Source of the DNA: Elusimicrobiota bacterium
Lineage (GTDB): Bacteria > Elusimicrobiota > Elusimicrobia > Elusimicrobiales > UBA9959
Direction of reading: 5' to 3'
Length of the DNA stretch: 58,562 bases
Assembly (NCBI GenBank): GCA_027340875.1
Contig: DAIENX010000009.1
Location: 1 to 58,562 of the forward strand
This document shows, one piece after another, positions 1-47,506 of the stretch. Below the pieces are notes generated by a model. The model was given only the letters and a program-made list of their open reading frames with translations. It ran no database searches and had not been told where the DNA came from. The translations under genes were made by a program, and so were the position numbers. Position 1 is the first letter of the stretch. Every line of letters starts with the position of its first letter.

Positions 1-134
1 ACACTAGAGCACGGGGCCGAAGCCCCGAGTCTTGGGGGTTTGGGTTAGGGGGGCGTGCCGTACAGCGCCGGAGATCTTTTGTGCCGCTTAGGGAGCTTCG
101 CTCCGCCGCGGTCTTTATAGAGAGCCTGACTACG
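1..134 (-). ncRNA. Candidate structured small RNA, copy 1 (3' end runs off the left edge)
   Basis: 3-78 matches 293-368 at 73/76 nt. On the minus strand: C-rich stretch, GGGGC-UUCG-GCCCC hairpin and closing stem with pairing-preserving substitutions. Own putative -10 (TAAACT) at 140-145. Confidence 0.55.
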
Positions 135-139
135 CTTAT

Positions 140-193
140 AGTTTACGAAAAGCGGTTCAAGAAGCAATCAAATGGGGCTCAAGAGCCGCTCAA
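140..193 (-). promoter_or_regulatory. Putative activator-dependent promoter with four phased TTGA boxes (copy 1)
   Basis: TCAA on + at 157, 168, 179 and 190 (exact 11-bp period); -10-like TAAACT on minus at 140-145. Confidence 0.55.
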
Positions 194-197
194 AAAT

Positions 198-266
198 TCG
201 CCCCGCCGGTCTCTGGTCGCCTGACTTAGGTCTGAAAGGGGGACTGAAGGAGATGCCCGGCGGGGC
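198..266. repeat. Palindromic spacer element between the two sRNA units
   Basis: Terminal inverted arms GCCCCGCCGG ... CCGGCGGGGC. Confidence 0.4.
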
Positions 267-269
267 TTC

Positions 270-384
270 AAAAATTGACCAGCGCTGCAGGTACTAGAGC
301 ACGGGGCCGAAGCCCCGAGTCTTGGGGGTTTGGGTTAGGGGGGCGCACCGTACAGCGCTGGAGATCTTAAAGAGCTTGGCTACA
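270..384 (-). ncRNA. Candidate structured small RNA, copy 2 (about 110 nt)
   Basis: Closing stem 345-361 pairs with 279-294; C-rich segment 323-343; UUCG hairpin 302-317; U5 tract at 270-274; -10 TATACT at 390-395. Confidence 0.6.
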
Positions 385-389
385 GATAA

Positions 390-443
390 AGTATAGGAAA
401 AGGCGTTCAAGAAGCGCTCAAATGAGGTTCAAAAGACGCTCAA
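390..443 (-). promoter_or_regulatory. Putative activator-dependent promoter with four phased TTGA boxes (copy 2)
   Basis: TCAA on + at 407, 418, 429 and 440; -10 TATACT on minus at 390-395; same geometry as copy 1 (250-bp offset). Confidence 0.6.
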
Positions 444-539: not shown

Positions 540-2615
540 ATGTCATCCATACAGTTCTTGAAAGGCGTGGGCCCCAAGAAAGCCGAGCTGTTCGGCCGGC
601 TTGGCGTGGAGACGCTCGACGACCTGCTGTTCTATTTCCCGCGCGGCTGGGAGGACCGCCGCCTGCCCGGGCGGAAGGAGCCGCTTCCTTTCCTGCAGGA
701 CGCGCCTGTGATAAAAGGACGCATAAAGCGCGTCCGCGACATGTATACGGCCGGCCGCCTGCGCATCTTCAAGGTCTTCCTCGATACCCCGTCCGGGGAG
801 GCGGAGGCCAGCTTCTTCAAGAGGCACAGCCCGCGCTTCGACGTCTTCGCCCCGCTGCGCAAGGACCTGAAGGAGGGGCGCGAGGTATGGATCACCGGCA
901 GGCCGGAAGACCCTCTCTTCCTGAGCCGCATAAGCGCGGAGGAGTACTACCTGGACGACGACCCGCGCGCCCTGAAGATGCATATAGGACGTATAGTGCC
1001 GGTCTACCCGCTCACAGATGGCCTGACGGCTAAGTTCATGCGTGAGGCCGTCTACGAGGCGGTGCAGGCCGGGCACGAGGCGGTGGCCGATTTCCTGCCC
1101 GCGGAACTTGCCGCCGGCCGGGGCCTGCTGGCGCGGGACGCGGCCGCGAAGGCCATCCATTTCCCGGAGAACAATTTCGAACTGTCACAGGCCAGGCGCC
1201 GGTTCATCTACGAGGAGCTGCTGCTGCTGTCGCTGGCCTGGGCCATAAAGAAACGCCAGACGCGCGGTGTGGAGAAAGGGTTCTCCTATGACGTGAAGAA
1301 GACGCTGCTTTCTCCGTTCAGGGAGAACCTGGGCTTCCAGTTCACCGCCGCTCAGGCGCACGCGATAAACGAGATCTTCACCGACATGCGGGCCCCGACC
1401 CCGATGGCCAGGCTGCTCGAGGGGGACGTCGGTTCGGGCAAGACGGTGGTGGCTCTTTCCGCCATGCTGCTGGCGGCCGAGAACGGCGGGCAGAGCGTCT
1501 TTGCGGCCCCCACGGAGATCCTGGCCGAACAGCATTACCTGACCTTCGAGAGGTTTCTTAAGGGGCTCGGCGTTCGTTTCGCCCTGCTGAAAGGCAGAAT
1601 GAAGGCCTCCGAGAAGAAGAGCATACTGGCCGACCTGGCGGAAGGGAAGATAGACATACTGCTGGGTACGCACGCCGTCATCGGGGAAGGTGTGCATTTC
1701 AAGAACCTGCGGCTGGTGGTCATAGACGAGCAGCACCGCTTCGGCGTGCGTCAGCGCGCGGCCCTGCGCGCCAAGGGCGATCGCGCCGACATGCTGATCA
1801 TGACCGCCACGCCCATCCCGCGCACCCTGTTCCTGGCCCTTTACGGCGACCTGGACCTTTCCGTCATAAAGGAGATGCCGCCCGGCAGGAAGCCTGTAAA
1901 GACCGCGGAAGCCACGGAGGACGTGGCCTTCATGGCCGCCAAGGACGAGGTCGCTAAGGGCAGGCAGGTATACATAGTCTACCCGGTCATAGAGGAGACG
2001 GTCGAGGCCGATATGAAGTCGGTAAAGGCCGAGTTCGAACGGCTGAAGACGCTGTTCAGGGGACGGCGGGTGGACATGCTGCACGGCCGCATGCCGGGCG
2101 AGCTGAAAAAACAGGTGATGGATGATTTCGCGGCCGGCCGCACCGACGTACTAGTGGCCACGCAGGTCATAGAGGTGGGCATAGACGTGCCGAACGCCAC
2201 TCTTATGGTGATAAACAACGCCGAGCGCTACGGGCTCGCCAGCCTGCACCAGCTGCGCGGCCGCGTAGGCCGCGGCCGGCACGATTCCCGCTGCCTGCTG
2301 GTGGCCCACGGGCGCAGCGGGGATTCTGCGGAGCGCCTGCGGGCCATGGTACAGAGTTCCAACGGCTTCGAGCTGAGCGAGAAGGATATCTATATCCGGG
2401 GCGCCGGCGAGATACTTGGCGTGCGACAGCACGGTGACATGGACCTGAAGCTGGCGGACATGGGCCGGGATAAGGAAGTGCTGGAGCAGGCGCTGGCCGA
2501 CCGCGACGCGATACTCGCCGCCGACCCCGACCTGCAGACGCCGGAGAATACCCGCCTGCACCGGAAGCTGCGGGACCTCTACGCCTCCCGCTGGAACCTG
2601 ATAGACCTGGCCTGA
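540..2615 (+). CDS. recG: ATP-dependent DNA helicase RecG
   Basis: LKGVGPK N-terminus, GDVGSGKT Walker A, DEQH box, TATPIPRT, QLRGRVGR and RGAGEILG motifs. Confidence 0.97.
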   Translation: MSSIQFLKGVGPKKAELFGRLGVETLDDLLFYFPRGWEDRRLPGRKEPLPFLQDAPVIKGRIKRVRDMYTAGRLRIFKVFLDTPSGEAEASFFKRHSPRFDVFAPLRKDLKEGREVWITGRPEDPLFLSRISAEEYYLDDDPRALKMHIGRIVPVYPLTDGLTAKFMREAVYEAVQAGHEAVADFLPAELAAGRGLLARDAAAKAIHFPENNFELSQARRRFIYEELLLLSLAWAIKKRQTRGVEKGFSYDVKKTLLSPFRENLGFQFTAAQAHAINEIFTDMRAPTPMARLLEGDVGSGKTVVALSAMLLAAENGGQSVFAAPTEILAEQHYLTFERFLKGLGVRFALLKGRMKASEKKSILADLAEGKIDILLGTHAVIGEGVHFKNLRLVVIDEQHRFGVRQRAALRAKGDRADMLIMTATPIPRTLFLALYGDLDLSVIKEMPPGRKPVKTAEATEDVAFMAAKDEVAKGRQVYIVYPVIEETVEADMKSVKAEFERLKTLFRGRRVDMLHGRMPGELKKQVMDDFAAGRTDVLVATQVIEVGIDVPNATLMVINNAERYGLASLHQLRGRVGRGRHDSRCLLVAHGRSGDSAERLRAMVQSSNGFELSEKDIYIRGAGEILGVRQHGDMDLKLADMGRDKEVLEQALADRDAILAADPDLQTPENTRLHRKLRDLYASRWNLIDLA

Positions 2616-4321: not shown

Positions 4322-7300
4322 ATGAACGAATTTTTTCCGAAAGTGATCAAGAAGCGCGACGGCAAGGTGGCTCCTTTCAACATAGAGAAGATAAAAGCCG
4401 CCATCTACAAGGCGGCCTATACCCTGGGCGGCCGCGACGAGGAGAAGGCCGTGGACGTGGCCAACGAGGTGGCCCGTCGGCTGAACAATGAATTTACCCT
4501 GAACAGCCGTATTCCGACCGTGGACGACAGCAACGCGATGTGCGTCACCGTGCTGCGCGAGAAGGGTTTCGACCGCACGGCGGACAAGTTCGAGTCCTAC
4601 TCGCTGGACCGCTCCCGCGTGCGCCGCAGCGGCCTTACGGTCAAGAAGAAGAAGGGCAAGGCCGACATCACCGACCAGATGCTGCTGGTGCAGAGCATCA
4701 CGAACGAGACCATAGAGCCGTTCGACCGCGCCAAACTGGCCGAGGCCCTGGAGAAGGAATACGCGCTGACCCCCGACCTGGCCGCCATGATAGCCAAGGA
4801 GACCGAGAACAACGCCTACGAGCTCTCCGAGAAGTACGGCACCAAGTCCTACGATACCCAGTTCCTGCGCCGCATCTCCGAGAGCCACCTCTCGATGATG
4901 GGCATCCCGCTGAAGAACTCCGCCCTCGTCATGCCCATCTCCACGCTTGAGTCCCTGGTGGTCTCCAACAGCAAGGAGAACAGCAACATCACCTCCAACA
5001 ACCCGGAGGCCGTGAACCTCGGAGTGGCCGAGTACGTGCTGAAGCAGTACAACCTGCGCAAGGTCTTCTCCGAGGACGTGGCCGAGGCGCACAACAACGG
5101 CACCGTGCACATCCACGACCTGGGCTATCCCCAGCGCGTCTACTGCTCCAGCCACTCCATCGAGTACATCAAGAAGTACGGCCTCGACAGGATAGTCTCC
5201 AACCTGCAGAACAAGAGCTACCCGGCCAAGTCCGCTATGGTGCTCAACGGCCATATCCAGACCTTCCTGGCCTCCATGCAGAGCCGCTACGCCGGGGCCC
5301 TGGGTTTCGGCTTCCTCAATATCCTCTACGCCCCGATGCTGAACTGCCCCGAGGTCATGGTGGAGGGCGAGCTGGAGGGCAAGCCGGTCCGGATGAAGAA
5401 GGACGCGCTGGAGGCCATGGCCGAGGCCGGCTCGGTCAGCTTCTCGGACGGCACCTCGGTCCCCTACTTCAAGAAGACCGGCGAGGTGCGCGTGCTGTTC
5501 AAGCTCTCCCGCAGGGAGATGCGCCAGATAGCCCAGAACCTGATCTTCTCCGCCAGTCAGAACGCGTTTTCCCGCGGGGGCCAGACGCTGTTCATCGACT
5601 TCAACATCCACACCGGCGTGCCGCAGTACCTGCACAACGTCCCGGCGATGGGCCCCGGCGGCAAGTACATGCTCGAGGACGCCTCCGGCAACATCGAGCT
5701 CGTGGACGAGGCGCCGCGCTTCAAGGGCGTGGCCGGGGATTCCCGCAACGGCGACGTGGTGCACCCTAACGACGGCCGCAAGTTCGTCACCTACGGCGAC
5801 CCGCGCATGGCGAAGACCGCGCAGGAGTTCGCGATAGAGCTGATGAAGGTCTGGGAGGACGGCGACAAGTACGGCATCCAGTTCGCCTTCCCCAAGTGCG
5901 ACCTGCACGTAGGCAAGGACGCCCTCGAGAACCCGGACGAGCGCGAGGTCTACGACTACGGCTGCAAGCTGGCCACCAAGAACGGCTCCACCTACTTCAT
6001 GTTCGACCGCGACGGCGCGGGCGCGACGCTCGCGCAGTGCTGCCGCCTGAAGGAGAAGGTGACCGACCCCGACCTGCTGAAGCGCCCGGAGCGCATCCGC
6101 TTCACCGGCTTCCAGAACGTCACTATCAACCTGCCGCAGGCGGCCTTCAAGGGAAAGACACTGCAGGGCACGCTGGACGAGATAAGCAAGGCGATGGACA
6201 TAGCCATGCAGGCCCATCTGCAGAAGAAGGCCTATACCCAGACCCTGCTGGACACTGACGGCAGCCCGCTCAGGTCGCTTGGCCTGCCCTCCGACGACGG
6301 CACCCCGTACGTGGACCTGAACAAGGCCACCTACATCATGGGTCTGATAGGCCTCAACGAGGTGGTGCAGTACCTGACCGGCAAGGAGCTGCACGAGGGC
6401 AAGGACGCCTACGAGACCGGCCTGCAGGTCATCGACCACATGTACCAGAAGATCAACGAGCTCCGCGCGAAGTGGAACCTTAAGGTGACGCTGGAGGAGA
6501 CGCCCGCCGAGTCCGCCACGCAGAAACTGGCCAAGGGCGACATGGCGCGCTTCCCCGAGGCCAAGAAGGTGGTGAAGGGCGACCTGGTGAAGGCGCCCTA
6601 CTACACCAACTCCATACACCTCAACCCCGGCGCCGACGTGTCGATACTGGACCGCATAGAGCTGCAGTCGAAGTTCCACGACATGATAGAATCCGGCTCG
6701 ATCATCCACGTCTACTGCGGCGAGTCCCAGATCCCGCCGGAGTCCATCGGCACGCTGATCGAGAAGACCTACCGCAACACCCGAGCCTCGCAGGTGACCG
6801 TGTCCCCGGAGTTCACGCACTGCAACGACTGTCACACCAACTACTTCGGCTTCAAGGAGAAGTGCGGCAAGTGCGGCAGCGCCAACGTGACCAAGCGCAC
6901 CAAGATAGTGGGTTATTTCTCCAACCTCTCCGGCTGGAACGACTCGCAGCTCGAGATCAGCCGCGCCCGCGAGGCCGTGGCGCCGCACTACGCCGACCTC
7001 ACGCCCGGCGTGAGCTGGCTGCACGAGAAGGACAGCTCCAAGAAGGTCATGGTGTTCGGCAAGGCGGGCTGCGCCACGTGCGAGGAGGCCAAGACCTGGC
7101 TGACCAAGGCCCTGAAAGAGAAGGGTATGGAGATCCCGGTGGAGTTCCACGACCTGACCAAACCGGAGGCCAGGCTGGCCGCGGCCCGCTGGAACGTCCC
7201 GCTGGACCCCATACCCACCGTGCTGGTGAAGAATAACGGCACCGCCACCCGCTACGAGCTCGAGTTCAAGCGCGGCAAGCCGGTGCGCCGCAGGGAGCCG

Positions 7301-47396: not shown

Positions 47397-47506
47397 TGCA
47401 AGACAGCAGCCCTTGTAATCCCCCGATAGTGGCGGGGGAGAATCCACCGGCGGGCCTACCCGCTGTAACCAGGGGAAACGGACAGCCGTTTCTCTTTTTT
47501 TATTTT
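47397..47506 (+). ncRNA. Candidate structured leader or sRNA ending in an intrinsic terminator
   Basis: Hairpins TCCCCCG..CGGGGGA and GCGGG..CCCGC, then GAAACGG-ACAG-CCGTTTC plus a T-tract, about 20 nt before the next ATG. Confidence 0.5.

What the first reader, a model, noticed from the sequence alone, without database searches (positions are those of the whole stretch)
1..384. Tandem paralogous structured small RNAs with covarying stems
Seen: 3-78 and 293-368 are 73/76 identical and there is no listed ORF here. Read on the minus strand, copy 2 folds into a long closing stem (361-345 with 294-279) followed by U5. The stem encloses an unpaired C-rich tract (CCCCCCUAACCCAAACCCCCA) and a GGGGC-UUCG-GCCCC hairpin. 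The three stem pairs that differ between copies all keep pairing: U-A to C-G (347:292 vs 57:2), G.U to A-U, and G-C to G.U. The wobble pairs only work on the minus strand. The loop and hairpin are invariant. Inference: a multicopy sRNA family whose C-rich loop could pair with G-rich ribosome-binding sites or sequester a protein. I do not recognise the family, and the array may continue left of the window.
Basis: partly seen in the sequence, partly recalled or inferred. Interest (0 to 1): 0.8.

Follow-up and report, generated by a model that had tools for sequence, protein, structure and literature searches.

The report
Twin C-rich small RNAs, Elusimicrobia
Two adjacent copies of an uncatalogued small RNA gene, conserved across one family of uncultivated bacteria, display an almost invariant C-rich loop that is complementary to a conserved G-rich site in another regulator's mRNA, which points to an RNA-based control circuit in a phylum where such circuits are barely studied.

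Summary
In detail: 73/76 identity, a minus-strand fold, and wobble-consistent stem changes. The array does not continue: contig C100 overlaps the window start and completes copy 1, so there are two units. It is in 34 of 36 same-genus genomes, usually between recG and an OmpR-type regulator, was found only in this Elusimicrobiales family, and has no Rfam match. The loop pairs with a G-rich site between stop codon and terminator of an HTH-REC regulator gene in 25 of 31 genomes (control orthologues 0/30 and 3/30), but this genome lacks that site; here the best partner is the whole leader of a small gene. Simpler hairpins with a similar loop occur on chromosomes and in a phage. Best reading: two-component-activated, base-pairing sibling sRNAs that work like csRNA/LhrC but belong to neither. 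Expression evidence is weak. The scan noted this RNA before on other DNA (e1-2249473).

The parts
405..443 (-). Unit 2 promoter: four TTGA(A/G)C direct repeats at 11-bp period (443-438, 432-427, 421-416, 410-405); predicted OmpR-family activator site
   Evidence: the two proximal repeats are conserved across units; only 2 such sites in the genome at up to 2 mismatches
390..395 (-). Unit 2 -10 element TATACT, 9 nt after the last repeat; start predicted near 383
   Evidence: start site inferred from spacing, not mapped
192..383 (-). Unit 2 predicted transcript, about 190 nt
   Evidence: inferred from promoter, fold and U-tract; RNA-library contigs of relatives cover 254/277-368
365..375 (-). boxA-like Nus-factor motif in the unit 2 leader
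   Evidence: same type of motif upstream of a relative's 16S gene
279..361 (-). Unit 2 core domain: 16-bp closing stem P1, C-rich loop, inner stem with UUCG hairpin
323..343 (-). C-rich single-stranded loop, predicted pairing seed
   Evidence: nearly invariant columns in alignment A1; unpaired in consensus; complementary sites
200..266 (-). Unit 2 second domain: 10-bp GC stem enclosing a 47-nt variable loop with repeated U(A/C)AG(A/G/U)C motifs
192..196 (-). U-tract closing unit 2; overlaps the first promoter repeat of unit 1
   Evidence: conserved U-tract after the stem in homologues
155..193 (-). Unit 1 promoter: four 11-bp-periodic repeats (193-188, 182-177, 171-166, 160-155)
140..145 (-). 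Unit 1 -10 element TAAACT; start predicted near 133
   Evidence: inferred
114..125 (-). boxA-like motif in the unit 1 leader
84..111 (-). Optional leader hairpin, present in some units and variable in sequence
1..71 (-). Unit 1 core domain; its 3' arm, second domain and U6 tract lie on contig C100 (L001 67-171), followed by an OmpR-type regulator gene (L001 235-921)
   Evidence: exact 70-nt overlap of window start with C100; Pfam Response_reg + Trans_reg_C
540..2615 (+). recG, divergent neighbour (context, not part of the RNA)
   Evidence: Pfam RecG_wedge, DEAD, Helicase_C; same position in 29 of 34 genomes

Best explanation
The two units are independently promoted, trans-acting small RNAs. 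Shown here (computationally): conserved fold with covariation, conserved promoter repeats, boxA-like leader motif, terminal stem with U-tract, fixed synteny, and conserved complementary G-rich sites elsewhere. Inferred: (1) a phosphorylated OmpR-family regulator, most simply the one encoded directly downstream, binds the 11-bp repeats in place of a -35 element and switches both copies on; (2) the boxA loads NusB/NusE so that this untranslated, C-rich (Rho-loading-like) RNA is transcribed to its end; (3) the stem presents the C-rich loop, which seeds on G-tracts and extends into the top of stem P1, giving 20-25 bp duplexes without Hfq; (4) at a leader such as that of the small C69 gene this blocks the ribosome, while the conserved site just 5' of the HTH-REC terminator either changes that mRNA's 3' end and stability or, released as a 3' fragment, soaks up the C-rich RNAs; (5) the second domain binds an unidentified protein through 2-3 spaced motifs.
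For: Covariation: 98.8% of 1399 cells paired, 10 of 26 pairs with two-sided changes vs 4.9 +/- 1.2 shuffled, slid controls at most 48.6% paired. Promoter pattern in 60 units with the hexamer-N5-hexamer-N10-(-10) geometry of CiaR-driven csRNA promoters (PMC3091779 passages). OmpR-type gene downstream in 30 of 34 genomes. boxA-like motif within 1 mismatch in 53 of 61 leaders; strict form only 4 times in the genome; NusB and Rho present. One fixed seed against 130-nt windows at gene ends: HTH-REC orthologues 25 of 31 at -39 kcal/mol or better (20 of 26 without the five that led me to the gene), NarL-type orthologues 0 of 30, spoVG 3 of 30; 1 of 1500 background windows. In this genome the C69 leader ranks first of 2435 predicted start regions (-51.6; mean -16.9, sd 5.5) and stays first of 60 after opening costs.
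Against: This genome, G023, G036 and G152 lack the 3' UTR site although they keep the RNA. The C69 leader site is in 1 of the 5 other genomes that have the gene. The exact 11-mer complement is not enriched outside the arrays: 20 matches vs 32 for the reversed control in 37 genus genomes. I found no compensatory change between loop and site, because the loop is almost invariant; many sites read GGGAGG, a mismatch to the C6 run that fits the short sibling better. In about nine genomes part of the site pairs in cis. Genomes are kin, so counts overstate independence. No direct evidence for regulator binding, strand, ends or level of the RNA. In Listeria, Rli31's C-rich loop pairs with the spoVG leader in vitro yet does not regulate it (PMC4959528 passages).
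Confidence: 0.6

Rival explanations
1. The RNA is mainly a protein sponge: the invariant C-rich loop and the repeated second-domain motifs titrate an RNA-binding protein (candidates present in the genome: SpoVG, a KhpA/B-type KH protein, Rho), and the G-rich sites are antagonists of the sponge.
For: 104 U(A/C)AG(A/G/U)C motifs in 50 distinct loops vs 8.1 +/- 3.1 in shuffles, spaced 11-13 nt in 51 of 56 cases (motif chosen after seeing the data). The loop recurs in unrelated stems and in a phage hairpin. SpoVG in 41 of 43 genomes and binds the C-rich loop of Rli31 (PMC4959528 passages). KH_KhpA-B domain present.
Against: Hfq, CsrA, Jag_N and ProQ were not found in this 92%-complete genome. Long conserved complementary sites are not needed for protein titration. 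The simpler siblings lack the second domain, and it was not found by my pattern in 10 of 62 units.
Confidence: 0.22
2. The primary transcript is a precursor: RNase III cuts the 16-bp P1 stem, releasing the C-rich domain and the second domain as two separate RNAs with separate jobs, as in boxA-led rRNA precursors.
For: boxA-like leader, long covarying closing stem, RNase III gene present, second domain separable by insertions in several genomes.
Against: Cutting P1 would destroy the structure that presents the loop; an RNA-library contig spans core and second domain (X5), although contigs cannot show ends.
Confidence: 0.1
3. The G/C tracts act at DNA level or as G-quadruplex elements, and complementarity between loci is a by-product.
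For: The sites are runs of three or more G separated by short T/A loops; some 3' UTR variants have four runs.
Against: Strand-specific G-U pairs and two-sided stem changes indicate an RNA; the TTA spacer and the CG(C/T)AC flank of the sites are conserved as complements of the loop and stem top, which a quadruplex would not need.
Confidence: 0.05
4. A REP/MITE-like repeat without function of its own.
For: Palindromic, GC-rich, duplicated; a separate insertion element does land in the linker in some genomes.
Against: Two copies at one syntenic locus, each with its own promoter; none scattered.
Confidence: 0.02

Closest known systems
csRNAs of streptococci (CiaRH regulon; PMC3091779, passages read)
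   Same: Multicopy siblings; promoter with hexamer-N5-hexamer-N10-(-10) geometry for an OmpR-family regulator; conserved unpaired pairing region
   Different: Repeat sequence differs (TTGA(A/G)C vs TTTAAG); no anti-SD plus anti-AUG in the loop; loop enclosed by a long stem; boxA-like leader and second domain; other phylum; no Rfam match
LhrC1-5 of Listeria (LisRK-dependent; PMC4132741, passages read)
   Same: Multicopy, two-component-controlled, C-rich single strands pairing G-rich mRNA sequence, with stem opening on binding
   Different: LhrC uses three UCCC motifs; here one 21-nt C-rich loop; best-conserved partner site is in a 3' UTR
RepG of Helicobacter pylori (PMC8295292, passages read)
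   Same: C-rich loop pairing with a G-run; encoded next to a response regulator gene
   Different: RepG uses its terminator loop and a 5' UTR G-repeat; here an internal loop, tandem copies and a different fold
Rli31 of Listeria (PMC4959528, passages read)
   Same: Long stem presenting a C-rich loop, complementarity to the spoVG leader, SpoVG present
   Different: No Rfam match; here spoVG complementarity is weaker (8-10 nt) and the G-run also pairs in cis
CrfA sponge of SisA-D siblings in Caulobacter (PMC12559287, abstract and outline read)
   Same: Model for one RNA neutralising a family of sibling sRNAs, which is what the 3' UTR site might do
   Different: Hfq-associated; no sequence relation tested; here the candidate sponge is an mRNA tail
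Cuckoo/CcsR RNAs (PMC4615179, abstract and outline read)
   Same: Repeated C-rich-loop sRNAs
   Different: Defined by CCUCCUCCC loops on 2-4 adjacent hairpins, absent here

Membership tests
Any Rfam 15 family | Covariance-model score at or above gathering threshold | tested here: not met
   No hit in 1-540 at gathering; none over the RNA at E up to 5 in L059, L001, L129, L115, L148
csRNA (CiaR-dependent) | NTTAAG-N5-TTTAAG box 10 nt before the -10 element | tested here: not met
   Same spacing, different sequence with an invariant G where CiaR boxes have A
csRNA (CiaR-dependent) | Anti-SD plus anti-start codon in the unpaired region | tested here: not met
   Loop is C-runs with UAA/AAA spacers, no CAU
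LhrC | Three UCCC motifs in two loops and the linker | tested here: not met
   No UCCC in the core loop
LhrC / csRNA as a working type | Activation by a two-component regulator | not testable with these tools
   Only repeats and synteny
LhrC / csRNA / RepG as a working type | C-rich single strand complementary to G-rich mRNA sites | tested here: met
   Predicted duplexes above controls; binding itself not shown
RepG | C/U-rich terminator loop as pairing site | tested here: not met
   C-rich loop lies in the first domain, not the terminal stem
Cuckoo/CcsR | CCUCCUCCC loop on 2-4 adjacent hairpins | tested here: not met
CsrB/RsmZ-type sponge (features recalled) | Repeated GGA motifs and a CsrA partner | tested here: not met
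   Repeated motif is different; CsrA not found in this genome
Nus-factor boxA element | Match to boxA consensus near the 5' end of an untranslated RNA, in a genome with NusB | tested here: met
   53 of 61 leaders within 1 mismatch; 10 leaders carry the exact 11-mer used as boxA in PMC7862264; lineage 16S leader has the same type; NusB present
Nus-factor boxA element | NusB/NusE binding and antitermination | not testable with these tools
   needs binding or reporter assay
REP/MITE | Many scattered promoterless copies | tested here: not met
   two copies, one locus, own promoters

The most novel reading that the evidence does not exclude
A bifunctional regulatory RNA made by the rRNA-type antitermination machinery: one domain acts on the 3' end of a regulator mRNA (controlling its termination or stability, or being neutralised by that tail), a second carries a spaced array of sites for an RNA-binding protein of a still unknown Csr-like system, and the pairing loop is a family-wide currency copied by simpler chromosomal siblings and by a phage.
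Probability: 0.2. Interest if true: 0.8.

Novelty: new variant of a known kind. Interest (0 to 1): 0.6.

Why it matters
It gives a whole predicted post-transcriptional circuit (activator site, RNA, partner sites, siblings, phage look-alike) in a phylum for which my two literature searches showed no described sRNA, and in a genome where Hfq, CsrA and ProQ were not found. A conserved boxA on a 200-nt sRNA would extend Nus-factor antitermination beyond the rRNA, suhB and CRISPR leaders named in the papers read. A conserved sRNA-complementary site directly before an mRNA terminator is an unusual target position and is directly testable in a heterologous host. The repeated motif of the second domain predicts an RNA-binding protein that can be fished for.

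Tried and rejected
Array extension: C100 completes unit 1 and goes straight into the regulator gene; the model finds no further full copy in the genome. Genome-wide excess of the loop complement: none (20 vs 32 control). NarL-type regulator leader as target: G-run not conserved in 30 orthologues. C80 gene: found in only 1 of 40 genomes. spoVG leader: the G-run is kept in most of the 25 genus leaders printed and absent from the three other-family leaders, but it pairs in cis in the predicted folds, ranks only 12th in this genome, and second-domain pairing to it gave background-like percentiles: a lead only. A gene with a G-rich RBS in G005, G007, G019 and G020 has a weaker site here; probably just a strong RBS. 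rRNA as partner: best duplex only -28.8. Sigma-70 scan found no minus-strand promoter, as expected without a -35 element. The GTDB pattern scan allowed too short a gap and missed the commonest loop form, so its 11 hits give names (Elusimicrobia in 7 titles, 3 unnamed bacteria, 1 Kribbella hit without fold) but not range. The short sibling's loop was not found in viral contigs. The C69 protein has only a sub-threshold GvpO resemblance. R-scape and IntaRNA/CopraRNA were not available.

Full report
Observation. Window 3-78 and 293-368 are 73/76 identical. The minus strand of 270-384 folds better than all 200 shuffles (z = -3.55), the plus strand does not (z = -1.32). The window is the start of contig C1; contig C100 overlaps it exactly by 70 nt and completes copy 1. 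After copy 1 comes a Response_reg + Trans_reg_C gene and a GAF/PAS/HisKA gene; recG is divergent on the other side. BLAST and a covariance model find no third full copy in the genome. Rfam 15 has no match.

Distribution. A DNA search hit 35 of 36 other same-genus genomes at E up to 0.01; one of these was only a weak 31-nt hit, so I count 34. Fetched loci from 34 genomes hold two units in 28 (this genome included) and one in 6. recG is divergent in 29 and the OmpR-type gene downstream in 30 of 34, within loci cut at about 1.5 kb or at contig ends. The model hit 4 of 7 other genomes of the family, three of them from other genera, and 0 of 141 from other families of the phylum. Named records with the loop are Elusimicrobia or Elusimicrobiales in 7 of 11 titles.

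Anatomy. (a) Promoter: up to four TTGA(A/G)C repeats at 11-bp period, then 9 nt, then TATACT. The pattern matched 61 of 63 rows; one match was a reuse for a unit at a contig end, leaving 60. Only the two units carry it in this genome at up to 2 mismatches. The geometry equals that of CiaR-activated csRNA promoters (PMC3091779, passages). That the adjacent regulator is the activator is inference from synteny. (b) Leader: a boxA-like motif 6-25 nt after the predicted start; loose pattern 60 of 61 leaders, strict recalled consensus 25 of 61, one mismatch 53 of 61. The strict form occurs 4 times in the genome, once in unit 2 and once upstream of the tRNA at window 26533-26462; the one-mismatch form occurs 180 times. 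The E. coli consensus and the Legionella 11-mer are from PMC13753749 and PMC7862264 (passages). The one 16S gene found in 5 genomes searched has the same motif type 258 nt upstream. NusB and Rho are present. (c) Core: 26 consensus pairs, 98.8% of cells paired, 10 pairs with two-sided changes against 4.9 +/- 1.2 in shuffles, and at most 48.6% paired when slid. The structure came from this alignment and the rows are kin, so this is strong but not a formal test. In other genera the inner stem changes on both sides while the loop stays. (d) Second domain: a 10-11 bp GC stem with a 45-75 nt loop and U-tract, found by pattern in 52 of 62 units. Its loops hold 104 U(A/C)AG(A/G/U)C motifs in 50 distinct sequences against 8.1 +/- 3.1 shuffled, spaced 11-13 nt in 51 of 56 cases; I chose the motif after seeing the data.

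Expression. Eight RNA runs from 5 studies share a few words; I laid four. In three studies the only contig on the element (157, 161 and 229 nt, 90-95% alike) lies inside the predicted transcript, with loose ends that read as leader hairpin, boxA or second domain of relatives. In the fourth, contigs also cover recG and one bridges promoter and recG, so DNA may be present. Contigs give no strand or ends: this is a weak hint.

Partners. In this genome the best non-self duplex is the 5' leader of a 74-aa gene on C69, where a G-rich run fills the space between a TATAAT and the start codon. It ranks first of 2435 start regions from my own crude gene calls and first of the 60 best after opening costs, but only 1 of 5 other genomes with the gene has this leader. 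Five of 20 exact loop complements outside the arrays fell at one place: between stop codon and terminator of an HTH_17 + Response_reg gene. With one fixed seed, 25 of 31 orthologous gene ends reach -39 kcal/mol or better, 20 of 26 without those five; NarL-type orthologues 0 of 30, spoVG 3 of 30; background 1 of 1500. The hairpin behind the site has sense-strand G-U pairs and no reading frame follows in the sequences printed. The site keeps the TTA spacer and a CG(C/T)AC flank complementary to the top of P1, which suggests stem invasion as described for LhrC (PMC4132741, passages). Against: this genome, G023, G036 and G152 lack the site; exact complements are not enriched genome-wide (20 vs 32); no compensatory change was found; and Rli31 shows that such complementarity need not mean regulation (PMC4959528, passages).

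Siblings. A 50-nt hairpin with a related C-rich loop and its own TTGACA/TAGAAT promoter lies just downstream of the HTH-REC gene in 25 of 28 loci, in G160, G097 and G152 and in a genome of another family. A medium form occurs in G004, G009, G027, G036 and G124. Two IMG/VR contigs with an identical stretch carry the loop on a 10-bp stem beside a DUF3799 nuclease gene; the host is unknown.

Mechanism and rivals. I favour two-component-activated, Hfq-independent pairing sRNAs (0.6). Hfq, CsrA, Jag_N and ProQ were not found in this 92%-complete genome; SpoVG, a KhpA/B-type KH domain and RNase III were. A protein sponge (0.22) is the main rival and may hold for the second domain even if the loop pairs. 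Precursor processing (0.1), DNA-level or quadruplex roles (0.05) and a selfish repeat (0.02) are less likely.

Known or new. It works like csRNA, LhrC and RepG (PMC8295292, passages) and fails their defining sequence features; cuckoo RNAs (PMC4615179) and the CrfA sponge (PMC12559287) were seen as abstract and outline only. CsrB features are recalled. Two searches, Elusimicrobia with small RNA or noncoding RNA and Elusimicrobiota with sRNA, covariance model or RNA motif, showed no description in their top 20 listings; this is weak, and supplements of large RNA-motif surveys were not examined. Verdict: a real, uncatalogued RNA family; new variant of a known kind; interest 0.6.

Noticed in passing
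G000:C64 about 6560-6660 (L190 1470-1570): Short sibling sRNA: TTGACA-17-TAGAAT promoter, 11-bp stem, 20-nt C-rich loop, U8 tail; nearly invariant across the family and in one genome of another family. In most relatives it is preceded by a TGT(A/G)AC-N4-GT(T/C)ACA palindrome (CRP/NtcA-like, recalled) that this genome lacks.
   Followed up: partly
L115, L117, L125, L208, L187, L137, L138, L145, L146: Medium sibling hairpin with a loop intermediate between the long and short forms, at varying loci; possibly mobile.
   Followed up: partly
L055 and L056, opposite strand near 1500: A further C-rich-loop hairpin with a TTGACA promoter between a receiver-domain gene and an XRE-like regulator gene.
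   Followed up: no
L148/L149 790-835: Phage contigs carry the long RNA's loop on a minimal GC stem upstream of a DUF3799 nuclease gene.
   Followed up: partly
L012, L014, L015, L022, L028 (linker after the core): A related palindromic insertion sits in the AU-rich linker between core and second domain in five genomes; looks like a MITE with a preferred site.
   Followed up: no
L001 215-237: The OmpR-type regulator gene has TATAAT 7-8 nt before its ATG in most genomes: probably a leaderless mRNA.
   Followed up: partly
G000:C73 2842-2910 minus (L157): spoVG leader has a conserved stem and two G-runs in the genus, not in the three other-family leaders printed; candidate cis-regulatory element or target.
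   Followed up: partly
window 26717-26707 minus: Strict boxA-like motif about 175 nt upstream of the tRNA at 26533-26462, followed by palindromic sequence.
   Followed up: no
window 47408-47477 plus: Rfam 2dG-II purine riboswitch above gathering score.
   Followed up: no
L104 1440-1495: HTH-REC promoter has an extended -10 followed by conserved A-rich direct repeats, possibly an autoregulatory site.
   Followed up: no
G000:C50 4805 plus (L215): The cysE-like gene's leader begins with a 9-nt complement of the loop right after TATAAT; conservation not tested.
   Followed up: no
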